A DNA stretch of 64,000 nucleotides from Terriglobia bacterium (GCA_963758445.1 CAVWVR010000005.1:21414-85413), one strand, 5' to 3'. Positions 35,383-58,517 are shown, counted from the stretch's first letter. Notes: generated by a model from the letters alone, not told the origin. Numbers and translations are program-made.

Positions 35383-37563
35383 TTATCGGCATTCATCGGG
35401 ACCAGCGATTGCGGCCCACTGCCCCCAAGCCGTGCCTGTATCCGAAGCTGTCACTCGGACCCGTTCTGTTGCCGGCGGGATCGCAATGCGCCAGAAACTC
35501 CATCGCGTGGCGTCATCCTCCATCGGAGCCGTGGCAATCACTTGGCTTGACTTGTCATCAGTCAGCGTTACCGAAAGACCATCCACGCGCGGGCCGTGCA
35601 AAACCGGCAGGATTATGCAGTGATTCGCCGGGATTGAAAACACCGAAGATTGCCACTGCCCGGTGTCCCGGTCGGAGCCGCCCCAACTGCTGTATATTGG
35701 CCCGGCGGGCAATTCGCCTGAAATCACAACTGGAAAACGCGCTTCAGTCCACGGCCCTGAGCCCGACCACGTCAACCCGGCGAGTGCCGGACCTGCGTCC
35801 TTGAGGCTTACAGGAGCAGTGTCTGGAAGTGGAATATTTTCAGCCAGCGGGAACAGACCTCCGCCCGCATCGGCAATATATACGGATAGCTTCTGAACTG
35901 AATACCGGAGGTTCACAAAACCCACCCACCCTAAGGACGGAGGCACGTTGTGCGCCGGTATATCTCGCGGAAACCCCGCCGGAAATCTTTCACCAAGTCC
36001 GACAATCTGACCTTGTTCGTTCGCCAGTATGACCCACCTGTATGTGCGCTGTAAGTTGCTCGGATCCGCCCAACCCGCAACTTCGACGCCCGAGGCCACT
36101 GGGTACATGAATGCGACTGCTCCTGGCATGTGTGCGGTCGAAACGGAAGCATAGCCTCTCACGCTCTTACCTAACCACCGCCCCAGGTATTTGTAGTAAA
36201 TGGAAAGTTTATTTTCCTGCAATTGCCGGTCATACACTCTCACGAACTCAAATGATGGAAATATCATTCGCACCAGAGTGTCGTCCATTAGTCCATTCTG
36301 CAGGCTGAGTGCTACCATTTGGTACTTCGCAAAGTAAGTTGCGTCATCCGCAAGCCAAGGCTGCAAACTGCTAAGTCCGAGCGCCAATACGCCTGCAACA
36401 AACGCGGCAAACACGGGAACTAGCTTGCCAAGACGCGCTCCCAACTCGAATACCCAGAAATAAATCAGAATTGTGACTCCCCAATTCAATAGAGGTATCG
36501 TCAGGTATCGAGGAGCCAATGCCGCCCCCACTCTCGGATCGCTCGGATCCATTCTCCCTGCCGCAGTGATTACGATCGTGGAAAGTGTAAACGCATAGGT
36601 CCCGAAGAAGACCAGAGCGGGGCGAGCGGAAAGCATGCCTCGGCGCCAGGCAATTGTGCCTGCAGTAACTACGCTGAAACAGTTGAACCAGCCAATACAG
36701 ATTCCCATGGTCGGCACTGTCATTTCGGGATAATTGGTTATCTCTGTAAATGGCATTCCGAGATACGCGCCAAGGAATTCAAGGAAGTAGATTGGGTTTG
36801 AAGTCAAGTAAGATAGATGAGTCTCTTTCGAAAACTTATAACCAATGAAGTAAGTTCCACCAATAATAATCGCGGAGGCAATCAGAATCGCTACATCGCT
36901 TGGCTTAACGCGCATCAGTAGCGCTCCGCCTATCAAAATAGGCCAGACCGAGAGGCCATTACCGGAAGAATACGTCGCTACAGATGCGGCGACAATCGCG
37001 TAGGCTAAGTGCTTCTTGTGGCCGCTTTGCGTAAACAGTGCAAGAAAAGACAGCGCGCATACTACCGAAAGTTGTGCCAGCGTCCACTGCATCAAAAACG
37101 GAGTAGCCAGAACCGTGGCGCTTCCCTGCCAGAAGACCACAACGGCGGCTAACAAAATAGCAAGGACTCTGGTGTAGGCGGCAGTCCTCTTTTCTGACCA
37201 GAAGTTCGCCGCAAGCACCGCAAAGGCCAAGCCGTAGGAAAAAAAACTCACCATGATGGGGAGCGTTTGTCGGCCATGCAGCATCAACATGTCCAGTGCA
37301 AAGATGATTTCCGGAAAAATGATCCGGTGCTCATTGTGCTGTCGCCACAAGGCCGGAAGATACAAGTGTTGATAGGCGCCAAGATTTTCTACCGTGCGCC
37401 AGTAATCCCAAACAGGCAATGCACAGTAATAATGGACTATCCGCTCTACTGTTTGAACTCCGCTTAGCACCGCCCAAACAGCCAACACGAAGAGCAACAG
37501 CGCAAGGACATGCCCGCGCAGTTTCTCAAATGGAGCAGAAATCTGATGCTCGTTATTCATCAT
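35383..37563 (-). CDS. Large polytopic membrane protein with a C-terminal soluble domain (possible GT-C-type glycosyltransferase; unassigned)
   Basis: 726 aa. About 12-14 TM helices in the N-terminal 430 aa, followed by a 300-aa periplasmic-like domain. No diagnostic motif recognised. Confidence 0.45.
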   Translation of the reverse strand: MMNNEHQISAPFEKLRGHVLALLLFVLAVWAVLSGVQTVERIVHYYCALPVWDYWRTVENLGAYQHLYLPALWRQHNEHRIIFPEIIFALDMLMLHGRQTLPIMVSFFSYGLAFAVLAANFWSEKRTAAYTRVLAILLAAVVVFWQGSATVLATPFLMQWTLAQLSVVCALSFLALFTQSGHKKHLAYAIVAASVATYSSGNGLSVWPILIGGALLMRVKPSDVAILIASAIIIGGTYFIGYKFSKETHLSYLTSNPIYFLEFLGAYLGMPFTEITNYPEMTVPTMGICIGWFNCFSVVTAGTIAWRRGMLSARPALVFFGTYAFTLSTIVITAAGRMDPSDPRVGAALAPRYLTIPLLNWGVTILIYFWVFELGARLGKLVPVFAAFVAGVLALGLSSLQPWLADDATYFAKYQMVALSLQNGLMDDTLVRMIFPSFEFVRVYDRQLQENKLSIYYKYLGRWLGKSVRGYASVSTAHMPGAVAFMYPVASGVEVAGWADPSNLQRTYRWVILANEQGQIVGLGERFPAGFPRDIPAHNVPPSLGWVGFVNLRYSVQKLSVYIADAGGGLFPLAENIPLPDTAPVSLKDAGPALAGLTWSGSGPWTEARFPVVISGELPAGPIYSSWGGSDRDTGQWQSSVFSIPANHCIILPVLHGPRVDGLSVTLTDDKSSQVIATAPMEDDATRWSFWRIAIPPATERVRVTASDTGTAWGQWAAIAGPDECR

Positions 37564-37703: not shown

Positions 37704-40700
37704 CTATGGATGCGGCACTAACTGCCAGACCTGGTTAGGTCCACCAAGGTAGTCGTACTGCTGAATGAGCGTTCCATCCGTGCCCGAACCGCCGGTAACA
37801 TCCAGAACGCGGCCGGTGAACTTATTCACGATCGAATAGTATCCATCCACGCCGGTCGGCACAAACGCCCACTTTTGATTGTCTCCGCCCACATAATCAT
37901 ACTGCTGAACATTCGTACCGTTGGCGACATTTGAGTCGACGACATCCAGCACCAGGCCGCTGTGGATGTTCACAATCTCGTAATAGGTGCTGTCAACCGG
38001 AATCAGTTGCCAAAGTTGGTTCGCTCCGCCCAGGTAGTCCCACTCCTGAATGAGCGTCCCGTCTTGAGTAGAAGCACCCGTAACGTCAAGCACTTTTCCC
38101 GTTTCGAAATTCACGATACTGTACTTCTGTGTCGGTATCAGCGCCCAATTCTGGTTCGCGTCCCCCGCCGCCTGATATTGCTGCACGAGCGTGCCGTTCT
38201 GAGTGGCGCCTCCCGTATCATCCAGAAGCAAACCGCTATTCACATTTGTGATTGTGTAAAAACCACTCACGCTTGGCGTCAGAATCCACTGTTGATTGGG
38301 ATTACCCAGGTAAGACCATTGCTGAATCGTAGTACCGTTAACAGTGGACTCGCCGGTAACATCCAATGCCAACCCGCTGTTCAGATTCATAATCACGTAG
38401 TAACCGCCAGGAATGGGCACCAACGCCCACTTCTGATTGTTTGCGCCCAAATTGTCGTATAGCTGAATCGGGGCGCCGTTCGAAATAGAACCGTTCGTCA
38501 CGTCCAATACTCGTCCACTCTGCTGATTTGCGATTTCGTAAACCGCTCCACTGACCCCAGTGAGCGCAACTGTTTGCGATGCGCCGTCTACATTGTCAGA
38601 GATGAGAAGCGTAGCCGTCTCCATGGCCGTCGTGCTCGGCATGTAGGTGACCGTAATCGTGCAGCTCTTGGAGATAACGCCTTGACAATTGTTCGTGAAG
38701 CTGAAGTCCGAAGCGTTCGGCCCCATTATGGAAACCCTATTGATTATCAGCAACACGCTGTTGGGATTTGAGACCGTAATCGTGCCCGATTGACTAGGCG
38801 ACCCGTTAGCCGCATTGAGAACCAGGTTCGTGGGATTAAGCAGCATAGCCGCCGTCGTTAGACCGGCCCCGGGCGGCCCGCTCGCAACGTATGCACCTGG
38901 AAGGCCAACCGGAATGGTGGCTGTGTTGCTGATGAATGCATTTTGCGCGATGTAAAGTTGCGTCGTACCATTTACGGGCAGATCGGACGGCACAACCATT
39001 TGGATATTGTAAATTCCGTAACCCGCCTGCACCAACCCCGCGGTGATAACCTCCGCCGTTTCGCTATTCATCGTAGCCGTAACGCTGTTTACAGCCGAAT
39101 TAAGTACCGGGCCGTACCAGGGCTCTCCTGTTGCCACAGTAAGAACATTTGAATTGATATCCTGCACCGTCCCGAGCCCCGTCCCGGACACCGTGATCAG
39201 TTCGCCAGGTACCGCCGGATTACCCGCCGTGATGGGGCTGCCCGGAGTAACTGCGCAGCAGGTGGATGATGTGTAAGCAGTGATGGTGACCGTGGCGCTT
39301 GCGCTGCTGGTACCTGTGATTGGAATGCCGGTTCCTCCCACCCCGCTCTTAATGGCGGTCAGAATGATGCGCTGGAAAGCGCCTCCCAGTGATGCAGTCA
39401 CATTCGCATCCGGCGCGCCGTTGATCATGTTTACTAAGTTCTGTGCGATCGATAAAAGAGTGTCGGTGGATACGACTGTGTACGTGTAAGTTGCGGAACC
39501 GATCGTAATAGTCGCCGTGTTCCCCGCCGTCACCGCCCCGTCCACCGAAACAACAGCCGTCGGATTACCTGGTTGATGATAGGCATTGATCACCGGCCAA
39601 GGCCGCGGCTGACCGGAAAATGCCGGCGAGCTGAACAAGCCGGGATTCGCGGGCGCAATGTACATCGGTGTCGCGTTCGTCACCGTAACCGATCCGTCGT
39701 TGTGTGCCGTTCGCACATAGATACTGGTGCTGTTACGGTCCGTAACTGCGCTGGCTCCAACAGTGGCCGCGTTCTCATCGCTTCCGTTCACGTACGTAAA
39801 TGGAATTTCCGTGATGATTTGCGTGGGCGACACACTTAGAATCGGCGAAGCGTTGCCGTCCATGAAAACCTCAACTCCGCCCAGCGACGTCGGAAGAGCG
39901 CCAGTCAGAGAAGTCGCAGTCGTGTTGTCCGACAAGTTGCTCCCGTCGATTTCTACCAACATGCCGGCCGCACCCGTTCCCGCATTGCCGGCCGCCAGGT
40001 AACTACCCGAAGCTGTAGCCGTTATGTCCGTCGCGCTCGATGTCGAAGCGGCCAACGTGATCGAGTCAAAAGTCAGGTTTATCGCCTTCGAAGCCAGATA
40101 CACACTACCCGTGCCTACGCCCGCGAATAACGCCGTGGCATTTGGATCACCCGCCCCCGAATTTGAGCTATTGATAGCCTTTGTAATTCCCTGCGCGATC
40201 GTATCCAATGTGTCGCTTTTCACGATCGTGTAAGTGTAAGCAGTTCCTAGAATCGTGATGGTGACGGTATCGCCTGCCGTAATCGCCCCTCCGCTGGGCA
40301 ACGTGAACGTAACGATTCCCTCTTGGCGAATGATTTCGCTCGCCCAGTTCACGGCCGCCCTGGGCGGCAGCGGGGTATCGGCCGGCGTATACACGACAAC
40401 GCGGTCGTTGTACGGGTCGCTCACATACAAGTTCGTGCCATCAAAAGCGAGTGAAGTGGGAGAAGAAACAATGTCCACGCCACTGGTGTTGTCCACCAGC
40501 GTGCTGGTGATGCTGATGTTTGTGCTGGTGTCCTGATCGCTGACGAAATCCACTTGCCCCAGAACTTCATCGGCTGCGGCGCCGTCCTGCGTCGGAATCG
40601 TGTTGTAAATCAGCACCCGATCGTTACCGCCGTCGGCAATAAACAGCCGCGTCCCATCGGACAGCGCGTAGCGTGGGAAGTTCAATGTGTTTTGACAGGG

Positions 40701-41747
40701 CGTGAAATTGTCGCCGCCGCAAAAATAGCTGCTCCAATTAGGTACCGCCGTGGTCAGGTTGGGCTGTCCAATTACCACATCGGCATTCTGATCGTTGCTC
40801 AAATTGAGTTGCCCGTTCACAAACGCCGTGTTCCAGATCAACACTCGGTTGTTTCCCAGGTCGGCAACATAAAGCCGCGTTCCGTCGGAAGTAACTGACG
40901 TCGGATTCAGCAGCAGATTGCCGGCCGTCGTCGGATAGGTCGCGGTGGTAATCGGTGGCTGATAAACGGTGCTGAAATTCGACTGCCCCAGCACCAGATC
41001 CGCCGGCTGATTGTTCTGTGTCGGAATGTGTCTCCAGATCAGAATGCGGTAGTTCTGTGTGTCGGCGACAAACAGAGCCCCGTTTTGAATCCAGACCCCT
41101 TGCGGACCGCGCAGAGAGTTTGAGTTCACAGGTTGCGGAGTCTGGAAGCTCGTAAAACTCGACTGCCCTATTACGATACTCGGCGCCGCATTGTTCGTTG
41201 TCGGAATACTATTCCAGATCAGCACGCGATTGTTGTCGGTATCCGCAATCGCCAGATACGTTCCGTCACTCGCAACAGCCGTGGGCGTCTCCATGCTGCC
41301 CGCTTCTGCAGTGCTTCCATTCGCGGGCACTGCCACCTGAGCGCGCCCCGGATTGTTGCTCACAAAATCAGGCTGCCCCAGGACAATGCTGGCGCTGTAA
41401 CCGCAAAGGCTGCAGACGGCCGGCGTCGAAGTCGCGGGAGTTATGGTAGTCAGATCTGCGTACGGACCGGGAATCTGGCTCGTTGGAAAACCTAAAACTC
41501 GATTGTTCTGCGGCGTGGCGGCAATGCGGTTTGAATCCGCAACCCACAGCGTCCCATTCGCATACGCGAGGCCACTCGCGCCGCCAATCAGATTCGATGC
41601 CGTGCCCTGCTGGCCGGTGGTAAAGTTCTGCGGCTGCCCAACCTCCGCGCGCGCGGCTTGGCCATTTACAAATGTCTTTTGCGCGCTAACTACACCAGAA
41701 AATAGGAAAAAAAGAGAGAGTATGCTCTTTCGCAAACAAAGCCCCAA
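37704..41747 (-). CDS. Secreted 1347-aa NHL-repeat beta-propeller protein with Ig-like middle region and two C-terminal ricin-B (beta-trefoil) lectin domains
   Basis: Signal peptide. Repeated NNRVLIWN / NYRILIW / NDRVLIYN NHL motifs. The C-terminal 280 aa carry six Q-x-W repeats (QKW, QQW, QNW, QLW, QKW, QVW) typical of ricin-B lectin. Confidence 0.8.
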   Translation of the reverse strand: MGLCLRKSILSLFFLFSGVVSAQKTFVNGQAARAEVGQPQNFTTGQQGTASNLIGGASGLAYANGTLWVADSNRIAATPQNNRVLGFPTSQIPGPYADLTTITPATSTPAVCSLCGYSASIVLGQPDFVSNNPGRAQVAVPANGSTAEAGSMETPTAVASDGTYLAIADTDNNRVLIWNSIPTTNNAAPSIVIGQSSFTSFQTPQPVNSNSLRGPQGVWIQNGALFVADTQNYRILIWRHIPTQNNQPADLVLGQSNFSTVYQPPITTATYPTTAGNLLLNPTSVTSDGTRLYVADLGNNRVLIWNTAFVNGQLNLSNDQNADVVIGQPNLTTAVPNWSSYFCGGDNFTPCQNTLNFPRYALSDGTRLFIADGGNDRVLIYNTIPTQDGAAADEVLGQVDFVSDQDTSTNISITSTLVDNTSGVDIVSSPTSLAFDGTNLYVSDPYNDRVVVYTPADTPLPPRAAVNWASEIIRQEGIVTFTLPSGGAITAGDTVTITILGTAYTYTIVKSDTLDTIAQGITKAINSSNSGAGDPNATALFAGVGTGSVYLASKAINLTFDSITLAASTSSATDITATASGSYLAAGNAGTGAAGMLVEIDGSNLSDNTTATSLTGALPTSLGGVEVFMDGNASPILSVSPTQIITEIPFTYVNGSDENAATVGASAVTDRNSTSIYVRTAHNDGSVTVTNATPMYIAPANPGLFSSPAFSGQPRPWPVINAYHQPGNPTAVVSVDGAVTAGNTATITIGSATYTYTVVSTDTLLSIAQNLVNMINGAPDANVTASLGGAFQRIILTAIKSGVGGTGIPITGTSSASATVTITAYTSSTCCAVTPGSPITAGNPAVPGELITVSGTGLGTVQDINSNVLTVATGEPWYGPVLNSAVNSVTATMNSETAEVITAGLVQAGYGIYNIQMVVPSDLPVNGTTQLYIAQNAFISNTATIPVGLPGAYVASGPPGAGLTTAAMLLNPTNLVLNAANGSPSQSGTITVSNPNSVLLIINRVSIMGPNASDFSFTNNCQGVISKSCTITVTYMPSTTAMETATLLISDNVDGASQTVALTGVSGAVYEIANQQSGRVLDVTNGSISNGAPIQLYDNLGANNQKWALVPIPGGYYVIMNLNSGLALDVTGESTVNGTTIQQWSYLGNPNQQWILTPSVSGFYTITNVNSGLLLDDTGGATQNGTLVQQYQAAGDANQNWALIPTQKYSIVNFETGKVLDVTGASTQDGTLIQEWDYLGGANQLWQLIPVDSTYYEIVNIHSGLVLDVVDSNVANGTNVQQYDYVGGDNQKWAFVPTGVDGYYSIVNKFTGRVLDVTGGSGTDGTLIQQYDYLGGPNQVWQLVPHP

Positions 41748-42543: not shown

Positions 42544-43609
42544 TCAGGGCGCCGATTCCTTCAACAGCTCAGCGAGATACTGCTGCCAGACGGCTGCGTA
42601 GGTGTGCGTGCCATGTCCGTGTGTGGCATCGCTGGCCGGAATAAGCACGAACCGGCCATTCTTCACTCGCTGGATGTCTCGCTCCGCGATGCCAAGTTCC
42701 GGCGGATTGATGAAATCGTCCGCTGAGTTAATATGCATCACCCACGCTTTCACTTTTTCCAAATCATGCGATGGGTCGTAATCGCGCGAGGAAGCCACCG
42801 CATAGAGAAGATCATTTGCGTCGGTAGTCTTCCTGCGCTGTTCCACTTGCCTTGCGAGCAGTTCATCCGCCGCATCTGGGGTCGGGCGCGTCCTTTTGCA
42901 TCTGAATCGGAGCCCCGCCCGCAATGATCAACATGTGGATCGCCCCCGTCAAACCTGCCGGCTGCTGCTGATAATCGCCGTGGTTCCATTCCGCATCATT
43001 GGTGATGGAATCCATCAGCATCTTGCGCCAGATGCGGTTGCGTCCCGCAATCGGTTCGGGCAAACACGCCAGCGGCATCATCGCATCCATGAAGTCCGGA
43101 TTGCGCTCGCCCCACATCCACGAATGCATGCACCCCATCGAAGTTCCCAGGATCAGCCGCAGATGATCAACATGCAATCCCTCGGTCACCAGCCGGTATT
43201 CAGCCGTGACCATGTCCGCATAACCGTAGTGCGGAAAATGGCCGCGCAGGCCATCGCTCGGTTTAGACGAATTACCATGCCCGATATCATCCGGCAGAAT
43301 AATGTAGTACTTCGCCGGATCCAGCAACCCGCCGCTGCGCAGCAGCACGTCATGGAACTGCGGCGACAGGAACTGCCGCCCGCTTCCTCCCGTCCCATGC
43401 AGGATCAGCACGGCATTAGTCACATGCCCGGACGCATCCCGCTTCGGCACGCCCAGCGTGAGATAGTGCAGCTTCAAAATCGGCAGCGTTTCGCCATCGG
43501 CAAAGTGAAAATCGTTGATGGCGAAATCGCCCGGCTGGGGAGTCTGAGCAAAAGCGAATGAGCCCAACGCCACGGCCATCAGCAGCACAATTCCGATGAT
43601 TCTCATCAA
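42544..43609 (-). pseudogene. Secreted MetX-like alpha/beta hydrolase interrupted by a frameshift near 42877-42924
   Basis: ORFs 42863-43609 and 42544-42924 are in different frames and together make one alpha/beta hydrolase (GTSMGCM nucleophile elbow; continuous sequence ...QMQKDAP / TPDAADELLARQ...). Either a genuine pseudogene or a sequencing indel in an AAAA/CCCC run. Confidence 0.6.
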
Positions 43610-43639
43610 CGCCCATAGTAAGCTGCTGGTCTAGTCTCC

Positions 43640-46600
43640 ATGCCTAAGAAAAAGGCAGCCGTGCCGAGCTTCCTTAAGCTACAAACGACCTTAAAGCGCG
43701 AGAAAACGTGCCATGTAACCCGGATTGCGTGGTCGAATCGTGGCGATCTGCTTGCCGTTCCCACACAGGACGGTACCGTCGAACTTTGGCTTGCCGGCGA
43801 CGGCAGGCGGACCTTCGAAATAGTGGTGAGGCAAGGCAACTGGACGACGGATGTAGCTTGGGCGCCGGACGACAAGATTCTCGCCACTCTGTCGGGCGAT
43901 GAGCTCGTCAGGCTGTGGAGAGTACCGAACGCTAAGCGCATTTTTTCCCGGCTTGGGGAAAGCGTTCACATCGAAGCAACGGCGTTAGCATGGTCGCCCG
44001 ACGGCAAATTCCTCATAACTTGCAAAGGAACGGCAGTGCAGGCCTGGGATACGGATACCTGGCGCAAGGCGCACGTGGCGGAGATGGGGTCTCCGGCTAC
44101 CTTCCTGGTGTTCTCTAAGGCTGGCCGGCTTGCCATCTGTACTCGCGATGGTGCCGTCTACATAACTGATTCGTCCTTGACACACCAAAGCCTGGCAACC
44201 CAGCACAACCGGCCGGCGGTAACCGCGGCTTGGTCGCCAGATGGCGAGATCCTTGCCTTGGGCCACTCCTATGGAGACCTCCAGACGTTCGATGTGTCAG
44301 TGGGACGCGTCACCCAAACCATCGAAGGGCATACCAAGACAGTTCGCTCTGTGTCTATATCGGCCAACGGGCAACTGCTCGCTTCCAAGTCTGACGACGG
44401 CAAGGTCTGGCTGTGGGATCTTCGGACCGGCATGCCTGTCGAGGGAATCGATGAGCCGTTCGGCGGGGTGAAAGATAGCAGCACAAGAAAGCCGGGGGCA
44501 ATTGCTTTCCATCCGCAACTCCCGCTCTTGGCAACCCTGGATGCGGGTAATCACAACGTTCGGCTTTGGAATGTCGATATTGGCAGCCTTCAGAGCGTTC
44601 CGTTGCCCGCCCAGGAAGCTGATCCGGCAATCCGGTACACCACCGCAAAAATCGTTCTGGTCGGCGATAGTGGGGTCGGTAAGACCGGTCTTGGCTGGCG
44701 GCTTGCCCATGGCGAATTCAAAGAACACTCCTCCACCCACGGGCAGCAGTTCTGGGTTCTGAACCAGCTCCATTCAGTCCGCGCTGATGGAACTGAGTGT
44801 GAGGCTGTCCTATGGGATCTCGCAGGCCAGGCGGATTATCGCCTGACGCATGCCCTGTTCCTGGAAAAAGTGGATGCGGCTCTGGTTCTGTTTGACCCCG
44901 GAAATCAAATCGACCCGCTTAAAGGCGTGCGCTACTGGCTAAACGCTCTGGACCGCGACACCCACAAACCCATACCCAAGATACTCGTCGGCGCACGCGA
45001 GGATCGTGCAGCTTCGACTCTTACACCAGCCGATCTGATGCAGTTTTGCAACGACAAGCAAATTAGTGGCGGCGCCCGGTTCTGCAGTGCCATGACGGGC
45101 AAGGGCATTCAGGAACTCCTGGATAGTTTGAGCGCTGCTGTTCACTGGGACGAAATGACCGCTACCACCACCACCAGTAATTTCAAGCGCGTCAAAGACT
45201 TCGTTCTGAATGCGAAACAGAGTGACGCTACCCGAGTGCTCCTGAGTCCGGCCGAACTCGAACAACAACTGCACGCCGTTGATCGGGCCTGGAAATTCTC
45301 AGCCGCAGAGATGATGACCGCGGTTCACCATCTGGCCAATCATGGCTACGTTTCGATACTGCCAAGGTCGTCTGGCGATCAAAGCATTTTGATGTTCCCG
45401 CAAGTGCAATCTAATCTTGCCGCTTCGTTTGTACTTGAGGCGCGCAGGCATCCCAATGGGCTGGGCGCGCTTGAAGAGACTCGGCTGCTTCGTGGTGAGT
45501 ATCAGTTTCCGGAAATCGCTAACTTGTCGGCCCACGACCGCGAGACCCTCCTCGACTCCACCGTGGCCCTGTTTTTACAGCGCAATATCTGTTTCCGGGA
45601 GCGGCTTGGCCCATCCACCCTCCTGGTGTTTCCGGCGCTTATCAATCAGCGCAAGCCGCCGACGGAATATGCTTTCGCCGACGACGTGTCTTACGTCATC
45701 AGCGGACCAGTGGAAAACGTCTATGCGGCACTAGTGGTTCTTTTGGGCTACACCAACACATTCACCCGTACAAACCATTGGCAGAATCAAGCCGAGTACG
45801 AGATGAATCCGGGCGAGATATGCGGGTTCAGACAAATATCGGAACAGGACGGTGAAATCGAGCTGGTCCACTATTACAGTCCGGAAGCAGGGCCCGAAGT
45901 GCGTTCTCTGTTTCAGGCGCTGTTTGAAGGTTTTCTGCGCAGCCGTAAAGTCACGGTCAAGAAATATGCTCCCGTGTTTTGCCCGGAGTGTCATGAGCGA
46001 GCCGAGCGTGCCGCAGTGCTCAAACGCTTGCGCGACCATAAGCCGTTTTTGTTCTGCGCGAATTGCGGAGCCCAGGTCCGCCTTGTAGGCGAGGATAGCC
46101 AGCCCGGTGTTACCGGTCAGCGAGCCGAAATTTTAACTGCGGACAAAGAGATCGCGCGCCGCCGAACCGCTTTCGAAGCTGCGCTCGGCAGAATCAAGGC
46201 GCTTATTCGGGATAGAAATCAACAACCGACGCCCTCCTGTTTCATCAGCTATGCGTGGGGAGTGTCTGCTCACGAGAAACGCGTGTTGCAGTTAGCTAAA
46301 GACCTGGAGAGGGCCGATGTAAACGTTCTGATCGATCGGCAGAGCAACGCCAGAATCGGCGCGAGCGTGGCCGATTTTGTAGACAAATTGGATGCCGTTG
46401 ATTTCGTAATCGTAGTTGGCACGCCCGAGTACCTGCACAAGTATCAATCGCGAGATCAAAAGTACGGCCATGTTGTCAGCGCTGAAATCGATCTGATTCA
46501 GGACCGGCTAACCGGCTCCAGACGCCACTCGGTACTCCCCGCGCTCCTGGCCGGGGACGGACCTACTTCCTTTCCGCCTCTTCTTCGCGGCGCCGTGCGA

Positions 46601-46750
46601 GGGGATCTGGTTACAGAAGCAAAGTATTTCTCAACCGTTGTCGATCTGATTCTCAGCATGTTCCAACTCCCATTTGAAGATCCGATCATCTCCAACATTC
46701 GGGCCGAATCGAACGTTGAGGATTGGAACTCCTCTGTTAGTCTCGCTTGA
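43640..46750 (+). CDS. WD40 - Roc small GTPase - COR-like - zinc ribbon - TIR-like multidomain protein (ROCO-family with TIR effector domain)
   Basis: WD40 repeats aa ~25-330. P-loop GDSGVGKTG (nt 44663-44689) and DLAGQ (nt 44816-44830). A winged-helix-like COR region aa ~510-770. CPEC...CANC (nt 45980-46066). C-terminal CFISYAWG...VIVVGTPEYL...VVSAEIDL resembling TIR_2 (aa ~865-1000). Confidence 0.75.
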   Translation: MPKKKAAVPSFLKLQTTLKREKTCHVTRIAWSNRGDLLAVPTQDGTVELWLAGDGRRTFEIVVRQGNWTTDVAWAPDDKILATLSGDELVRLWRVPNAKRIFSRLGESVHIEATALAWSPDGKFLITCKGTAVQAWDTDTWRKAHVAEMGSPATFLVFSKAGRLAICTRDGAVYITDSSLTHQSLATQHNRPAVTAAWSPDGEILALGHSYGDLQTFDVSVGRVTQTIEGHTKTVRSVSISANGQLLASKSDDGKVWLWDLRTGMPVEGIDEPFGGVKDSSTRKPGAIAFHPQLPLLATLDAGNHNVRLWNVDIGSLQSVPLPAQEADPAIRYTTAKIVLVGDSGVGKTGLGWRLAHGEFKEHSSTHGQQFWVLNQLHSVRADGTECEAVLWDLAGQADYRLTHALFLEKVDAALVLFDPGNQIDPLKGVRYWLNALDRDTHKPIPKILVGAREDRAASTLTPADLMQFCNDKQISGGARFCSAMTGKGIQELLDSLSAAVHWDEMTATTTTSNFKRVKDFVLNAKQSDATRVLLSPAELEQQLHAVDRAWKFSAAEMMTAVHHLANHGYVSILPRSSGDQSILMFPQVQSNLAASFVLEARRHPNGLGALEETRLLRGEYQFPEIANLSAHDRETLLDSTVALFLQRNICFRERLGPSTLLVFPALINQRKPPTEYAFADDVSYVISGPVENVYAALVVLLGYTNTFTRTNHWQNQAEYEMNPGEICGFRQISEQDGEIELVHYYSPEAGPEVRSLFQALFEGFLRSRKVTVKKYAPVFCPECHERAERAAVLKRLRDHKPFLFCANCGAQVRLVGEDSQPGVTGQRAEILTADKEIARRRTAFEAALGRIKALIRDRNQQPTPSCFISYAWGVSAHEKRVLQLAKDLERADVNVLIDRQSNARIGASVADFVDKLDAVDFVIVVGTPEYLHKYQSRDQKYGHVVSAEIDLIQDRLTGSRRHSVLPALLAGDGPTSFPPLLRGAVRGDLVTEAKYFSTVVDLILSMFQLPFEDPIISNIRAESNVEDWNSSVSLA

Positions 46751-46830
46751 CAAAGGGAAAAATCCAATTTGAGTTTGAATCGCAGAATGCACGGGCGCTT
46801 CCCGCTCCCTTCCGTCGTACAATTCGGGCG

Positions 46831-47286
46831 ATGCCTCTACTCGACAAAATTCAGAAAGACATGGTCGAAGCCATGAAAGCGAAGGAGGAGGCCCGGCTCA
46901 GTGCGCTGCGCATGATCAAGACGGCTCTGAAGAAACACGAAGTGGATTCCATGAAGCCGCTGAACGAAGCCACCGAAATGCAGATCATGGGCACGCTTAT
47001 CAAACAGCGCCATGAATCGGCCGACATGTTCCGCAAAGGCGGCCGTGAAGAATTGGCCGTGCTCGAAGAAGCCGAAATCCGCCTCATCGAAAGCTATCTG
47101 CCCGCAACCGCTTCTCAGGACGAAATGGAAGCCGCCGTTGCCGCCGCGATCTCGGAAACGGGCGCCACATCGTCGAAGCAAATGGGTCTGGTAATGAAAG
47201 CCGCTCAGGCCCGTCTCGCCGGCAAGCGCATTGAGGGCAAAGAGCTGAGCGACCTGGTCAAAAAGAAGCTCACCCCGGCGACTTAA
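46831..47286 (+). CDS. yqeY: GatB/YqeY domain protein
   Basis: 152 aa, MPLLDKIQKDMVEAMKAKEEARLSALRMIKTAL is a typical YqeY N-terminus. Start chosen at the internal ATG. Confidence 0.8.
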   Translation: MPLLDKIQKDMVEAMKAKEEARLSALRMIKTALKKHEVDSMKPLNEATEMQIMGTLIKQRHESADMFRKGGREELAVLEEAEIRLIESYLPATASQDEMEAAVAAAISETGATSSKQMGLVMKAAQARLAGKRIEGKELSDLVKKKLTPAT

Positions 47287-49793
47287 GTCGCCGACTTAGA
47301 AGCCGCCGGAGGGGTAACGTTCGGAACATCCAGCGGCAGCACAGGGTAACCTTCATCGCAGTCGCTAAACGGCTCCGCATTTTTTGGCTGCCCAGTATGG
47401 GCTTGCTGGGCAGCTTGCGACTGCGGCTTGCCGCGGCACACCAGAATCTGCTTCAGGCCCGCCGTGGGATCCGGAACCGCAGGCGCCTTGGCAAGGGGAT
47501 GCTTACCTTTCTTGACCGGCTTCGGCGCAGGAGGGTCTGGCTTCACTAAGCGAACCGTCGCGAATGTATCTCCGGAGCTTTTGATAAAGCAGCCGCCGCA
47601 CTTTGGAAATTCCAGCCTCAAATCCTGGAGCCCGCTTCCCTCCAAAGCGAGGGTGAGTCCATTTTGGGATGAGACTACGCTCAGCTTCGACACTATGGGA
47701 GCAGTCTTCGCAAAAATTGTGGGAGGTATCGGTTTGCTGTCCCGATAAGTATCGGGCCATAGCAACCGGCGCACTTCGACGCTGCTCGAAGTTCGAATAA
47801 GCTCCGTTGGCGCCAGAACTGTTATGGAACTGTCGTCCTGCGCGAAAAAGGGCGCATCGCTCAATCCGAAAATTTTGTCTCCAATGACCACTAACCATGG
47901 GTTTTCCCCACTCCGCCGTTTCAAGGCGGCATTTGCAAGCACTACTCCGGGCATCGACTCCTTGGGTAATAAAACTCCTATTTTGACTTTGCTCAGCGTG
48001 TCGGAATACGGAGTAATATCCAACCATTTGACCGTCAGTTGTTTTTCCTGATAGGCGCGTTGTTCAACCACCGGCTGTTGCCGATTATCCCGTCCTACCA
48101 GGTAAACGCCTTCAGCCGCGAGGATTGCCTTCGCCGGGACATCGAAGGTAAGTGCATCATGCGTTGTTGTTATAGTCGTCGGATTCAAAAACGTGCTGCC
48201 CACGCGGACCAGGGAACCGGGGAGAAAGGTGCCCGTCGCATTCACGTGTACATTACCTTGTCCAATATCCGTGACCGTAACTTCATCGGTGCGTTGTGAC
48301 GTGCTGTAGTAACTGATCGGGTAACATACCGGACCTTGCCGATCCACCGCCCGCCCCAGATAATTCCCCTTCTTGTCTCCTACCCGCCAATGGACGCTCA
48401 CGCAAGCGGTTCCGATCTCCTGAGTCGGCGAACCGTTATTGGGAACCCCTGGGACTGACACTTGTACGAAACTGGTCGAGTCGCCAGGCCGCAGAAAAGG
48501 ATTGCCTAACACGGGGCGAATCTGCCAGGCAAAAGACACGTCAGGGCTGCCGTCTTTGCAAAGACGGGATGGCCGCATCATCGCCACTGTCTCTTGCTGC
48601 TGGACAAGATAGTAAGTCTTGTGCCCCCAAAGAAAGGAGCCACCCACGTTGACAACACCGCCCAAGACCGCACTTATACTTCCCAAAAACGATTTATCCA
48701 CTAAGCTTGCAACGTTGTAAGTACGCTCTTGCGGAAGCAGAGTAACTACACTCGGAGACTCTAATGTCGATTCTGCACATACAGAAATTTCTATTTCTGC
48801 CACCGCGTTCTCTAACTTCTTGTCGTCCGGCGAAGGCGGCGTAACGGTAATCGGGAACCCAAGAGTAAAAGTAGTCTTAGGCTTCCCGTTAGTCTGCAAG
48901 TGATCGCTCACCGCGCCGCCAAGCAGAAGCTGCGTGTTCATGATTTCGTATGAAAGCTGAAGCGATTCGTTGTATGTCGCAAGCGACGAGCCGTTCACAG
49001 TAGGAGGCGCTAACGTTGGGGCTGGTGGTGTGGGCGCCGTCGGAGTGAGGCCCCCGACTGTCGTTGTCGTTCCCGGAGTCGTTGTGGTGGGATTCCCGGT
49101 CGACCCGAACGCAGGCACGCCGGCGGCAGGCGTAAAAGTGGAAGTACCTGGCGTCGGCGGACTGGAGGCGGACAATGCTACCGAAGTCTGGCGAATGTCG
49201 GCTCCCTGCACACCGCCGATGTGACTTAACAGCGTCGACTGATCAACCCCGTGAACTGCCGCTAACTGACCCTGCAGCATGAGAAGTTGGTTCTGCAAAT
49301 ACAAGTCGTCGTAAACCTTGGGGGCTCCCACAACCAGCATCATGCTGGTAACTGATGGCGGCGTTGTTGGGCTGGGCGTTTTGACTGGCTGATTCTCCGA
49401 CCTGCAAACTTCAACCACCACGGAAGCTGGTGCAATCCGGCTCCAGCACGAATTTGTAGCCTTCCCTACTTTGACCAAAGCATCGTTGACCGAATCGCCT
49501 TCTATGTCCACCGACGCTGACTGGATGGCCTGTTCGCGGTCATATGCCGGATCAAACCGAATCTGGAGTCCGGTTGCAGCCGCTAATGCTTCAAACAGAG
49601 CCCGTGGCGGTTGCTCAATTACTTTCAACGTGACGGGGCTATTCAGTCGCTGACTATCTGCCGCCGGAAGTGCCGCTGCCTGCCGCGGGCGTGCCTCCGC
49701 AGCGAGCACACTCATCATCAGCATGAGACAGAACAAGATTGGTGCTTTGGGGAGGTGGGACAAAATAGAGCTCCTATTAACTGCTCGCGTCAA
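47283..49793 (-). CDS. Secreted 836-aa hypothetical protein with an N-terminal STN-like domain and Thr/Pro-rich linker
   Basis: Signal peptide. VTLKVIEQPPRALFEALAAATGLQIRFDP resembles the STN (secretin/TonB N-terminal) domain. A PTTTTPGTTTT linker follows. The remainder is unassigned. Confidence 0.5.
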   Translation of the reverse strand: MTRAVNRSSILSHLPKAPILFCLMLMMSVLAAEARPRQAAALPAADSQRLNSPVTLKVIEQPPRALFEALAAATGLQIRFDPAYDREQAIQSASVDIEGDSVNDALVKVGKATNSCWSRIAPASVVVEVCRSENQPVKTPSPTTPPSVTSMMLVVGAPKVYDDLYLQNQLLMLQGQLAAVHGVDQSTLLSHIGGVQGADIRQTSVALSASSPPTPGTSTFTPAAGVPAFGSTGNPTTTTPGTTTTVGGLTPTAPTPPAPTLAPPTVNGSSLATYNESLQLSYEIMNTQLLLGGAVSDHLQTNGKPKTTFTLGFPITVTPPSPDDKKLENAVAEIEISVCAESTLESPSVVTLLPQERTYNVASLVDKSFLGSISAVLGGVVNVGGSFLWGHKTYYLVQQQETVAMMRPSRLCKDGSPDVSFAWQIRPVLGNPFLRPGDSTSFVQVSVPGVPNNGSPTQEIGTACVSVHWRVGDKKGNYLGRAVDRQGPVCYPISYYSTSQRTDEVTVTDIGQGNVHVNATGTFLPGSLVRVGSTFLNPTTITTTHDALTFDVPAKAILAAEGVYLVGRDNRQQPVVEQRAYQEKQLTVKWLDITPYSDTLSKVKIGVLLPKESMPGVVLANAALKRRSGENPWLVVIGDKIFGLSDAPFFAQDDSSITVLAPTELIRTSSSVEVRRLLWPDTYRDSKPIPPTIFAKTAPIVSKLSVVSSQNGLTLALEGSGLQDLRLEFPKCGGCFIKSSGDTFATVRLVKPDPPAPKPVKKGKHPLAKAPAVPDPTAGLKQILVCRGKPQSQAAQQAHTGQPKNAEPFSDCDEGYPVLPLDVPNVTPPAASKSAT

Positions 49794-53351: not shown

Positions 53352-53389
53352 CGGTGCTATGCTGATGTCTGGAAATGCTCATAGCACCG
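53352..53389. promoter_or_regulatory. 10-bp perfect inverted repeat CGGTGCTATG-N18-CATAGCACCG spanning the imuA start codon
   Basis: Left arm at 53352-53361 and right arm at 53380-53389. The ATG of imuA at 53375 lies inside the spacer. Confidence 0.5.
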
Positions 53390-54061
53390 GCCCGGGAAGT
53401 TCATGCCCCAACCCCGCACGTTCTAGCTGACCTACGCGAAAAAATCGATGCTCTGGAGGGTGCGCCGCGCCGCTTCGCCCGCACCATTCCGATCTCCGGC
53501 CTTATTGATGAAGCCCTGCCGGCACATGGCTTGCCCCTCGGCTGTGTCCATGAACTAAAGGGCAATCCCGCCAGCGTCATTGCCTTTGCCGGGTTGCTTT
53601 CCGCCCGCATCCCGCGCCAGGGCGCTGTCCTTTACATCGAGCCCTCCCGCTCGTTCTACCCGCTAGGGCTTCTGCCCTACGGCGTCAACCTCCAGCACTG
53701 GATTCATGTCCGCGCCCGCCGTCCCAAGGATCTGGTCTGGACCATCCTCGAAGCGCTCCGCTGTCCGCAAATTAATGCCGTCCTGGCCGTCCTTCCCTCC
53801 GCCGACCTCACTTTCTCGCGCCGTCTGCAGCTCGCAGCTGAGAGCAGCGGCGCAACCGGTTTCTTGTTCGGAAATATGGCCTCCGCCATCACGCGCTGGC
53901 GGGTTTCTTCTACAAGGAACTTCGGCTGGTCGCTTGAACTTCTTTATAGCCGGGGCGGACGTCCGGGCAATTGGCAGGTGAGTTGGCGCAACGGCCAACT
54001 TGAAACTGCACGCTCTATTCACCGCGGGCAGTTGGTCGCGAAAGAAGCCCTGGCAGGATGA
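53375..54061 (+). CDS. imuA: ImuA (SulA/RecA-fold protein of the imuA-imuB-dnaE2 mutagenesis cassette)
   Basis: 228 aa, gene order immediately upstream of imuB and dnaE2. ImuA-like sequence (LADLREKIDALEG...). Confidence 0.75.
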   Translation: MLIAPAREVHAPTPHVLADLREKIDALEGAPRRFARTIPISGLIDEALPAHGLPLGCVHELKGNPASVIAFAGLLSARIPRQGAVLYIEPSRSFYPLGLLPYGVNLQHWIHVRARRPKDLVWTILEALRCPQINAVLAVLPSADLTFSRRLQLAAESSGATGFLFGNMASAITRWRVSSTRNFGWSLELLYSRGGRPGNWQVSWRNGQLETARSIHRGQLVAKEALAG

Positions 54062-54062
54062 T

Positions 54063-55379: not shown

Positions 55380-55391
55380 GCCAGGCATCGC

Positions 55392-58517
<3,126 letters not shown>

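What the first reader, a model, noticed from the sequence alone, without database searches (positions are those of the whole stretch)
43640..46750. Single-gene WD40-Roc GTPase-COR-zinc ribbon-TIR protein: candidate GTPase-switched TIR effector (possible novel defense/signalling system)
Seen in sequence:
- aa 25-330 carry repeated WD/W-x dipeptides in beta-strand-rich blocks, consistent with a WD40 propeller.
- aa 336-505 have a Ras/Roc-like G-domain: G1 GDSGVGKT (nt 44663-44686) and G3 DLAGQ (nt 44816-44830). No canonical NKxD G4 is visible (nearest is VGAREDR).
- aa ~510-770 look like tandem winged-helix COR-type segments.
- CPEC...CANC is a four-Cys ribbon (nt 45980-46066).
- aa 865-1000 begin CFISYAWG (nt 46238-) and contain VIVVGTPEYL and VVSAEIDL. 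This matches the bacterial TIR (TIR_2) N-terminal FISY motif and the position of the catalytic glutamate (candidate E949, nt 46484-46486).

Established knowledge:
- Roc-COR tandems define ROCO proteins (LRRK2, Chlorobium Roco).
- Prokaryotic TIR domains are NAD+-cleaving effectors in Thoeris, CBASS, Avs/NLR-like and other antiphage systems.

Inference:
- A GTPase molecular switch coupled to a TIR NADase, with WD40 as sensor, would parallel STAND-NTPase/TIR immune receptors but use a different switch. I do not recognise this architecture as characterised.
- No partner gene (ThsA-like, SLOG, or cyclic-nucleotide effector) flanks it. The neighbours are a frameshifted hydrolase and yqeY.
Basis: partly seen in the sequence, partly recalled or inferred. 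Interest (0 to 1): 0.9.

Follow-up and report, generated by a model that had tools for sequence, protein, structure and literature searches.

The report
WD40–Roc–COR–zinc ribbon–SEFIR immune-type protein
This intact 1036-residue gene fuses a propeller "sensor", a Ras-like GTPase switch of the LRRK2/ROCO type and a SEFIR/TIR-type probable NAD-cleaving domain; it belongs to a widespread, untested family that looks like a GTPase-driven bacterial immune receptor, a kind already predicted from genome analysis.

Summary
ORF 43640-46750 (+) is intact, and every motif sits at the stated coordinates.

**Domains**
- WD40 propeller, aa 25-317.
- Roc/Ras G domain, aa 337-499 (Pfam Roc E 3e-19).
- COR domain, aa 505-778. 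It is invisible to sequence models, but the top 23 Foldseek hits to the predicted structure are all ROCO COR domains (E down to 3e-11).
- Invariant 4-Cys zinc ribbon.

**Conservation**
- GTPase motifs are conserved. G4 is a family-specific A-R-x-D.
- E949 is invariant.

**Family**
- About 1,650 clusters at 50% identity, in at least 248 GTDB species across many bacterial phyla and some archaea.
- No conserved neighbouring gene.
- WD40 is the most variable domain.
- The C-terminal position swaps between SEFIR, TIR_2, EAD7, PNP, CHAT and Metallophos.

**Best reading**
A self-contained sensor–GTPase switch–NADase immune protein. This is inferred, not tested.

**Novelty**
The kind is not categorically new. 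Kaur et al. 2021 predicted bacterial Roc-COR conflict proteins with TIR effectors. A Roc-COR-CHAT protease activates Runella gasdermin. bSEFIR depletes NAD+. This gene is a new, uncharacterised variant.

The parts
43640..46750 (+). Complete ORF, 1036 aa plus stop: WD40-Roc-COR-ZnR-SEFIR protein
   Evidence: More than 100 full-length homologues at 41-62% identity.
43712..44590 (+). WD40 beta-propeller (aa 25-317), the presumed ligand sensor. About 7 blades, judged from its length.
   Evidence: Pfam Beta-prop_THOC3 E 3.7e-39; WD40 PF00400 86.9 bits. It is the most variable domain: 38% mean pairwise identity and 3% invariant columns. It is also the most divergent domain between paralogues in one genome.
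44648..45136 (+). Roc/Ras-like G domain (aa 337-499)
   Evidence: Pfam Roc 69.7 bits and Ras 66.4 bits. Best PDB sequence hits are RASEF and Rab11, E 4e-14. Mean pairwise identity 67%.
44663..44686 (+). G1 / P-loop GDSGVGKT (K348)
   Evidence: G342, G345, G347 and K348 are invariant in 100 homologues.
44816..44830 (+). G3 / switch II DLAGQ (D393, G396, Q397)
   Evidence: D, G and Q are 100% conserved. Q397 occupies the Ras Q61-type position (established knowledge).
44993..45004 (+). Variant G4, A-R-E-D (aa 452-455), replacing NKxD
   Evidence: R453 and D455 are 100% conserved and A452 is 95%. It aligns with NKSD/NKAD of Rab proteins.
45152..45973 (+). COR domain (aa 505-778): two winged helices (about aa 537-663) plus an alpha/beta subdomain (about aa 680-776)
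45980..46066 (+). Four-Cys zinc ribbon (C781, C784, C806, C809)
   Evidence: C781, C806 and C809 are 100% conserved and C784 is 97%, with 3 gaps. It is modelled as short beta hairpins after COR. Pfam Zn-ribbon hits are only weak.
46115..46219 (+). Long conserved helix linking the zinc ribbon to the SEFIR domain (aa about 826-860)
   Evidence: Helix at model residues 327-359 and 2-21 of the second model. Conserved motif RTxFEAAL.
46235..46675 (+). SEFIR-type TIR-superfamily domain (aa 866-1012), the presumed NADase effector
46484..46486 (+). Codon of E949, the candidate catalytic glutamate
   Evidence: 100/100 in full-length homologues. 52/53 in class I GTDB loci, but Asp in 24/24 class II proteins, which carry a further C-terminal extension; the tails scanned were four TIR_2 and one EAD7. 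It lies in the long helix after strand C of the model.

Best explanation
The gene encodes a self-contained, ROCO-type (Roc GTPase + COR) immune or 'conflict' receptor.

**Proposed mechanism**
- The variable N-terminal WD40 propeller binds an invader-derived ligand, for example a phage protein.
- Binding releases or alters the nucleotide state and oligomeric state of the Roc-COR module. In the Chlorobium Roco model, this module cycles between dimer and monomer with GTP.
- The change is transmitted through the zinc ribbon and the long helix to the C-terminal SEFIR domain.
- The SEFIR domain then self-associates and hydrolyses NAD+, using the pocket that contains E949. This gives NAD+ depletion and growth arrest of the infected cell (abortive infection).

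**Shown here**
- The domain identities and their order.
- Intact, conserved GTPase motifs and an invariant E949.
- A variable sensor domain.
- Effector swapping within the family.
- Patchy distribution across phyla.
- No conserved partner gene.

**Inferred, not shown**
- Ligand sensing by the WD40 domain.
- GTP-dependent switching.
- NADase activity.
- Phage defence.
For: **1. Architecture.** WD40, Roc, COR fold, zinc ribbon and SEFIR are all confirmed.

**2. The switch looks competent.** G1, switch I (STHGQQFW), G3 (DxxGQ), G4 (ARxD) and G5 (TSA) are essentially invariant in 100 homologues.

**3. The effector looks catalytic.**
- F868, S870, Y871, W873, K934 and E949 are invariant or nearly invariant (97-100%).
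- The nearest characterised relative is bSEFIR, a single-protein defence that depletes NAD+ through its SEFIR domain.

**4. Natural experiment.** In 24 class II relatives the SEFIR-like domain has lost these residues. The W-G pair is deleted, K934 is most often Ala (19/24), and E949 becomes Asp in 24/24. Every class II protein has a further C-terminal extension. The five tails scanned carry TIR_2 (four, E down to 2e-20) or EAD7 (one).

**5. A modular effector slot on the same chassis.**
- PNP_UDP_1 and CHAT occur on close relatives.
- Metallophos, NACHT and TIR_2 occur on distant relatives carried by plasmids.
- These are the standard effectors of bacterial conflict systems (PMC8195603).

**6. 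The sensor is variable.** Mean pairwise identity is 38% for WD40, against 67% for Roc and 60% for COR. The same ranking holds between paralogues in one genome.

**7. Distribution.**
- 248 GTDB species in many phyla carry it, including Methanosarcina and Thermoplasmata. COR identity is about 50% across phyla. Some genomes have more than one copy.
- The family has 1,647 clusters at 50% identity.

**8. Self-contained.** No family recurs in more than 4 of 133 flanking genes from 35 loci.

**9. Precedents.**
- Predicted AP-GTPase/COR counter-invader systems with TIR effectors.
- The Runella Roc-COR-CHAT gasdermin protease.
Against: - No experiment exists for any member of the family.
- The window locus is ordinary chromosome, lying between a decayed hydrolase and yqeY and near ATP synthase, DHDPS and imuB-dnaE2. 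It is not a defence island.
- Only a few of the 133 flanking genes are defence-like.
- No copy was found on phages.
- Eukaryotic SEFIR domains are known only as adaptors.
- E949 could not be superposed on a known catalytic Glu. The weak AbTIR HMM alignment pairs it with a Glu eight residues downstream of the catalytic one, as I number AbTIR from memory.
- COR is recognisable only by fold. TM-scores are about 0.3 and RMSD about 10 Å, because the subdomains are oriented differently.
- G4 lacks the Asn and Lys of NKxD, so nucleotide affinity or specificity might differ.
Confidence: 0.6

Rival explanations
1. Signal-generating receptor. The SEFIR/TIR domain does not kill by depleting NAD+. Instead it makes a nucleotide second messenger (a cADPR isomer or similar). 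That messenger activates an effector encoded elsewhere in the genome, as in Thoeris.
For: - Many TIR domains are signal synthases, including isolated TIR domains from eukaryotic proteins; Roc and COR appear among that paper's figure-legend domain abbreviations.
- The domain chemistry cannot be told from sequence alone.
Against: - No ThsA, SLOG, SAVED or other receptor gene recurs next to the gene in 35 loci or in the window.
- The nearest characterised relative, bSEFIR, acts alone by depleting NAD+.
- Sister proteins carry directly toxic effectors (CHAT, PNP, Metallophos) in the same slot.
Confidence: 0.13
2. Adaptor-only SEFIR. The C-terminal domain is a homotypic protein-interaction module, as in IL-17R/Act1. 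It recruits other SEFIR/TIR proteins, and the protein acts as a GTP-regulated scaffold without enzymatic output.
For: - The best structural matches are the Act1 and IL-17RA SEFIR domains, which are adaptors.
- Class II relatives keep a degenerate SEFIR-like domain in front of another effector, which suggests a structural or adaptor role there.
- One relative ends in EAD7, an adaptor domain.
Against: - In class I, where SEFIR is the terminal domain, E949, K934 and the FISYAWG motif are invariant or nearly so (E949 52/53). These residues are lost in all 24 class II proteins, which carry a further C-terminal extension (TIR_2 or EAD7 in the five scanned).
- Bacterial SEFIR defence depletes NAD+.
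- No second SEFIR/TIR gene is conserved nearby.
Confidence: 0.12
3. Non-immune regulatory GTPase. The protein is a ROCO-type signalling protein for development, stress or cell-cell behaviour in bacteria with complex lifestyles. The TIR/SEFIR domain regulates NAD+ metabolism or signalling outside any conflict with invaders.
For: - The window has a housekeeping context.
- The family occurs in filamentous cyanobacteria, Thiomargarita, Chloroflexota and Planctomycetota.
- The biological role of bacterial Roco proteins is unknown.
Against: - Distribution is patchy and crosses domains of life, with about 50% identity between phyla.
- Paralogues have diverged sensors.
- The effector slot swaps among toxin-type domains.
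- Relatives sit on plasmids next to transposases and NACHT genes.

These features are typical of conflict systems, not of conserved regulators.
Confidence: 0.1

Closest known systems
Prokaryotic ROCO / 'AP-GTPase-COR' counter-invader proteins (Kaur, Iyer, Burroughs & Aravind 2021, eLife, PMC8195603, Fig. 6D). Structural archetype: Chlorobium tepidum Roco.
   Same: A Ras-like Roc G domain is followed directly by a COR domain. A repeat-type sensor lies N-terminal and a variable effector slot lies C-terminal. That slot is reported to hold TIR, caspase-like and other domains or EADs. The COR fold matches CtRoco, LRRK2 and LRRK1.
   Different: - The sensor is a WD40 propeller, not LRR.
- COR is too divergent for Pfam or PDB sequence profiles.
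- An invariant zinc ribbon plus a long helix follows COR.
- G4 is ARxD.
- The effector is the SEFIR subtype.
- I could not see that paper's source data, so I do not know whether this exact family was listed.
bSEFIR single-gene anti-phage defence (Millman et al. 2022; Bacillus sp. NIO-1130; BcSEFIR structures 5Y8E/5Y8F)
   Same: The effector domain is the closest sequence relative: PADLOC bSEFIR E 1e-18 and BcSEFIR E 1.5e-16. Both are single-gene systems. bSEFIR depletes NAD+.
   Different: - In bSEFIR the SEFIR domain is N-terminal, followed by an uncharacterised C-terminal region.
- Here the SEFIR domain is C-terminal, behind WD40-Roc-COR-ZnR.
- Only profile positions 22-185 of 412 match.
STAND/NLR-like bacterial immune receptors with TIR effectors (Avs/AVAST, bNACHT, TIR-STAND-TPR proteins)
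   Same: Both follow the tripartite logic of repeat sensor, NTP-dependent switch and effector. Both are single genes with swappable effectors. A TIR_2-AAA_16-TPR protein lies 7 kb from one homologue.
   Different: The switch is a small Ras-like GTPase with COR, not a STAND/AAA+ ATPase. The NACHT match is insignificant, E 0.033. The domain order is sensor-switch-effector, from N to C.
Runella Roc-COR-CHAT protease of the bacterial gasdermin system (Johnson et al., bioRxiv 10.1101/2021.06.07.447441)
   Same: A bacterial Roc-COR protein with a C-terminal death effector. Members of the present family also carry CHAT in the effector slot.
   Different: - It works with a partner gene (gasdermin).
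- Its effector is a protease.
- The role of its Roc-COR module was not dissected.
LRRK2 / LRRK1 (human ROCO kinases)
   Same: Both have a Roc-COR core fold and a WD40 propeller in the same polypeptide.
   Different: - In LRRK2 the WD40 domain is C-terminal and the output is a kinase.
- Here the WD40 domain is N-terminal and the output is SEFIR.
- There is no detectable sequence similarity in COR.

Membership tests
ROCO proteins | Ras-like Roc G domain with intact nucleotide-binding motifs | tested here: met
   Pfam Roc 69.7 bits against a cutoff of 27. G1, G3 and G5 are invariant, and G4 is a conserved ARxD variant.
ROCO proteins | COR domain recognisable by sequence (Pfam COR models or similarity to CtRoco/LRRK2 COR) | tested here: not met
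   No COR family at E ≤ 10 for aa 501-860. A profile of 13 homologues finds no ROCO chain in PDB sequences.
ROCO proteins | COR fold (tandem winged helices plus an alpha/beta subdomain) immediately C-terminal to Roc | tested here: met
   [not shown]
ROCO proteins | COR-mediated dimerisation and a nucleotide-dependent monomer/dimer cycle | not testable with these tools
   Needs SEC-MALS or cryo-EM with GDP and GTP analogues.
TIR superfamily (Pfam TIR_2) | Score above the curated threshold, and the flavodoxin-like TIR fold | tested here: met
   [not shown]
TIR NADases | Catalytic glutamate at the structurally equivalent position (SARM1 E642 / AbTIR E208) | tested here: inconclusive
   - E949 is invariant and lies in the long helix after strand C.
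- It is replaced by Asp in all 24 class II proteins, which carry a further C-terminal extension.
- It aligns with a Glu of BcSEFIR.
- The weak AbTIR alignment pairs it with a Glu eight residues downstream of E208, as I number AbTIR from memory.
- The tools give no residue-level superposition.
SEFIR domain (Pfam PF08357 / BcSEFIR) | SEFIR signal stronger than canonical TIR | tested here: met
   - Profile against PDB: BcSEFIR E 1.5e-16, against PdTIR 1.6e-5.
- Pfam SEFIR scores 25.5 bits against a cutoff of 23, but covers only profile positions 3-84 of 150, and TIR_2 scores higher in Pfam.
bSEFIR defence system (Millman 2022 / PADLOC PDLC03957) | N-terminal SEFIR domain followed by the family's own C-terminal region (full-length match) | tested here: not met
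   Only profile positions 22-185 of 412 match. The domain is C-terminal here. The published selection rule requires the SEFIR hit to be at the N-terminus.
bSEFIR defence system | Phage defence with NAD+ depletion | not testable with these tools
   Needs an experiment.
STAND / NLR-like NTPases (NACHT, NB-ARC) | STAND P-loop ATPase module | tested here: not met
   NACHT E 0.033 and AAA_16 E 0.13, both below threshold. The G domain is Ras/Roc.
Defence-island gene | Recurrent location next to known defence systems | tested here: inconclusive
   - 133 flanking ORFs from 35 loci contain only scattered defence-like hits: one TIR/ThsB-like protein, mad2/3/8, and TPR-CHAT in three.
- The window has none.
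- Gene calling was a crude ORF heuristic, and no background rate was computed.

The most novel reading that the evidence does not exclude
This family would be a prokaryotic immune receptor class in which a Ras-like Roc-COR GTPase, rather than a STAND ATPase, converts ligand recognition by a WD40 propeller into activation of a SEFIR NADase. If so, it would supply the missing biological function for bacterial Roco proteins. It would also provide a simple enzymatic read-out (NAD+ loss) for Roc-COR switching, the same switch that is mutated in LRRK2 Parkinson's disease. And it would place SEFIR-based and ROCO-based immunity before the origin of eukaryotes.
Probability: 0.5. Interest if true: 0.75.

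Novelty: new variant of a known kind. Interest (0 to 1): 0.6.

Why it matters
Bacterial Roco proteins have been studied for nearly two decades as structural stand-ins for LRRK2, yet their own function is unknown. Nearly all characterised NLR-like bacterial immune receptors use STAND ATPases.

This is a large, cross-phylum family in which a conserved Roc-COR switch is wired to an easily assayed effector (NAD+ hydrolysis). That wiring would let three questions be tested directly:
- Does a small-GTPase switch gate immunity in prokaryotes?
- How does the Roc-COR nucleotide cycle control an output domain?
- What does a WD40 sensor recognise?

The naturally swapped effectors (SEFIR, TIR_2, PNP, CHAT, Metallophos, EAD7) also provide ready-made controls.

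If it is wrong, the gene is just one more multidomain 'TIR domain-containing protein'.

Tried and rejected
- **Phage genomes.** tblastn of the COR-ZnR region found nothing.
- **Promoter and terminator scan of 43200-47400.** No more sites than in shuffled sequence, so it is uninformative for this organism.
- **Literature.** 'bSEFIR' gave 0 papers. 'Roco + phage' and 'Roc-COR + phage' found no experimental study of a ROCO-TIR/SEFIR defence protein.
- **Apparent short forms lacking WD40 (L010, L012, L042).** Each turned out to have a WD40 ORF directly upstream. These are split or frameshifted genes, not a separate architecture.
- **An N-terminal alpha-amylase on P0126.** Probably a gene-fusion or assembly artefact. 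I ignored it.
- **Model coordinates.** They are not available to scripts, so E949 could not be superposed on SARM1, AbTIR or BcSEFIR.
- **STAND/NLR membership.** Considered and rejected.
Full report
**1. Observation**

The window carries one uninterrupted ATG-started ORF, 43640..46750 on the + strand, encoding 1036 aa. Residue 949 is Glu. The ORF has the same G+C content as its surroundings, about 0.56-0.57.

**2. Domains detected by sequence**

- Pfam finds a WD40 propeller over aa 25-317, with E down to 4e-39.
- Pfam finds a Roc (69.7 bits, cutoff 27) or Ras (66.4 bits) G domain over aa 337-499.
- Pfam finds TIR_2 over aa 868-991, at 37.9-40 bits against a cutoff of 28.
- PADLOC matches its bSEFIR model at E 1.1e-18, but only over the SEFIR part of that model, positions 22-185 of 412.
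- NCBIfam adds only small_GTP, at 41.6 bits, just under its 42.5-bit cutoff.
- The 360 residues between the G domain and the TIR domain hit nothing in Pfam except weak zinc-ribbon models. A 13-sequence profile of that region finds no ROCO protein among PDB sequences.

**3. The middle region is a COR domain by fold**

- An AlphaFold2 model of aa 500-862 has mean pLDDT 83.1. It shows two winged helices, an alpha/beta subdomain, a small beta-hairpin zinc ribbon and a long helix.
- Foldseek against the PDB returns only ROCO proteins in ranks 1-23. Alignments cover 211-371 columns, most over 310. The hits are:
  - Chlorobium Roco RocCOR/COR (3dpu, 3dpt, 6hlu), E 2.9e-11 to 1.3e-8
  - LRRK2, E 5e-10
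  - LRRK1, E 1.6e-9
- TM-scores are low, about 0.3, because the subdomains are oriented differently.

So the protein is a true Roc-COR tandem, but its COR domain is too divergent for current sequence models.

**4. The C-terminal domain is SEFIR-type**

- A 21-sequence profile of aa 838-1036 hits the Bacillus cereus SEFIR crystal structures at E 1.5e-16. The best canonical TIR (PdTIR) scores 1.6e-5 and AbTIR about 1e-3.
- The bacterial SEFIR defence protein is reported to act alone and to deplete NAD+ through its SEFIR domain.

**5. Conservation**

In 100 full-length homologues:
- G1 (GxxGxGKT), G3 (DxxGQ, including Q397) and G5 (TSA) are essentially invariant.
- A switch I block, STHGQQFW, is also essentially invariant.
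- G4 is a family-specific [GA]-A-R-x-D, with R453 and D455 at 100%. The guanine-specifying Asp is kept, while the Asn and Lys of NKxD are replaced.
- The four zinc-ribbon cysteines are invariant.
- In the SEFIR domain, F868 is invariant, S870, Y871 and W873 are 97-99% conserved, and K934 and E949 are 100% conserved.

By domain, mean pairwise identity is 38% for WD40, 67% for Roc, about 60% for COR and 53% for SEFIR. Between paralogues of one genome, WD40 is again the most divergent domain. This is the pattern of a diversifying sensor on a conserved switch.

**6. Family, distribution and context**

- More than 2,400 proteins match the full-length query. Over 100 of them are full-length, at 41-62% identity. 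NCBI names some of these 'TIR domain-containing protein'.
- A COR-ZnR profile finds 1,647 clusters at 50% identity, 628 of them at E ≤ 1e-30, among 1.84 billion representatives.
- The family occurs in 248 GTDB species. These include Acidobacteriota, Bacteroidota, Chloroflexota, Cyanobacteria, Planctomycetota, Thiomargarita, SAR324 and Nitrospinia. They also include the archaea Methanosarcina and Thermoplasmata. COR identity is about 50% across phyla, and several genomes hold two copies.
- Flanking genes differ from locus to locus. Among 133 flanking ORFs from 35 loci, no family recurs more than four times. Only a few are defence-like: TPR-CHAT, one ThsB-like TIR and mad2/3/8.
- In the window the neighbours are a split alpha/beta hydrolase and yqeY, with large secreted proteins further out. 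Beyond those lie ATP synthase subunit a, DHDPS and an imuB-dnaE2 pair. This is an ordinary chromosomal context.
- No copy is found in phage genomes.

**7. A modular effector slot**

- Among the GTDB loci, 53 proteins (class I, which includes the window protein) end in the SEFIR domain.
- Another 24 proteins (class II) have a degenerate SEFIR-like domain. F868 is replaced by Tyr (23/24), the W873-G874 pair is deleted, K934 is most often Ala (19/24), and E949 is replaced by Asp in 24/24.
- All class II proteins have a further C-terminal extension. Of five tails scanned, four carry a canonical TIR_2 domain (E down to 2e-20) and one carries EAD7 (E 4e-20).
- Other close members carry PNP_UDP_1 or CHAT in that slot. 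One carries an N-terminal TIR_2-nSTAND1 module.
- Distant relatives, about 30% identical in COR-ZnR, lie on Nostoc and Calothrix plasmids (two conjugative, one mobilizable). They have the same WD40-Roc-COR chassis with Metallophos, NACHT or TIR_2 at the C-terminus. They sit beside transposases, an integrase and NACHT genes.
- The loss of the conserved SEFIR residues in the proteins that carry a further C-terminal domain is the best available indication that those residues, E949 included, serve the effector function in class I.

**8. Mechanism (inferred)**

- The WD40 domain senses an invader-derived ligand.
- Roc-COR changes its nucleotide and oligomeric state.
- The zinc ribbon and the long helix transmit the change.
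- SEFIR domains assemble and hydrolyse NAD+, arresting the infected cell.

I give this reading 0.6. The rivals are:
- a Thoeris-like signal synthase with an effector encoded elsewhere (0.13; no conserved partner gene argues against it);
- an adaptor-only SEFIR domain (0.12; the class I versus class II residue pattern argues against it);
- a non-immune regulatory GTPase (0.10; the distribution and the effector swapping argue against it).

**9. Comparison with what is known**

- Kaur et al. 2021 (PMC8195603) described prokaryotic counter-invader systems centred on the 'AP-GTPase' (Roc) plus COR. Those proteins have fast-evolving N-terminal LRRs and at least 24 different C-terminal domains, including TIR, caspase-like domains and EADs.
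- Kaur et al. 2020 defined the EAD domains.
- The protease that activates Runella gasdermin is a Roc-COR-CHAT protein.
- Papers on immune PNP and TIR effectors list Roc and COR among the domain abbreviations of their architecture figures; the PNP paper's figure shows eukaryotic homologue architectures.
- I found no experimental work on a WD40-Roc-COR-SEFIR protein.

The finding is therefore a new, uncharacterised variant of a predicted kind. Four features distinguish it:
- a WD40 sensor;
- a cryptic COR domain followed by an invariant zinc ribbon;
- an ARxD G4 motif;
- a SEFIR-type effector.

**10. Limits**

- All function is inferred.
- Structure models rest on shallow alignments of 13 and 21 sequences.
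- Flanking genes were called with a simple ORF heuristic.
- Class assignment used phmmer with the window's own domains as queries.
- The catalytic equivalence of E949 remains unproven. One weak alignment to AbTIR pairs it with a non-catalytic Glu. Spacing arguments relative to SARM1 rest on my own recollection of that sequence.

Noticed in passing
window 42544-43609 (-): An alpha/beta hydrolase (Abhydrolase_1, E 7e-10) is split into two overlapping ORFs, 42863-43609 and 42544-42924. Its start lies only about 30 bp from the start of the WD40-Roc gene, on the opposite strand.
   Followed up: partly
window 53375-58517 (+): A probable mutagenesis cassette: a 228-aa ORF, then an ImuB-like protein (IMS_C, 54000-55379), then a DnaE2-type polymerase III alpha (55392-58517).
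   Followed up: partly
window 37704-41747 (-): A 1347-aa secreted-looking protein with NHL repeats and five ricin-type beta-trefoil lectin repeats (RicinB_lectin_2, E 2e-97).
   Followed up: partly
window 47283-49793 (-) and 35383-37563 (-): Two long ORFs of 836 and 726 aa have no Pfam match at all. The first begins with a signal-like sequence and has a Thr/Pro-rich stretch.
   Followed up: no
P0001 (Logan contig, 5.7 kb) versus window 43640-46750: The only near-identical database protein differs from the window protein at two residues, T864P and E930D. The exact protein is therefore apparently not in the collection.
   Followed up: partly
L067 6452-11813; L048 and L075 (same contig, DATFGQ010000114.1): - **L067:** a tandem pair, with a full-length copy followed after 42 nt by a copy lacking WD40 (Roc-COR-SEFIR, 726 aa).
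- **L048 and L075:** a class I and a class II paralogue lie about 18 kb apart on one Blastocatellia contig.
   Followed up: partly
[not shown]
   Followed up: no
L063 6599-9065; L010, L012 and L042: Several homologues are split into a WD40(-Roc) ORF and a downstream Roc/COR-...-SEFIR ORF. These are frameshifts, assembly errors or real gene fission. In L063 a stop separates Roc from COR.
   Followed up: partly
L001 19763-23050 (-): In an Acidobacteriota MAG, a 1095-aa TIR_2-AAA_16-HEAT/TPR (STAND-type) protein lies 7 kb from the homologue. An IS-type DDE_3 transposase lies directly upstream of the homologue.
   Followed up: no
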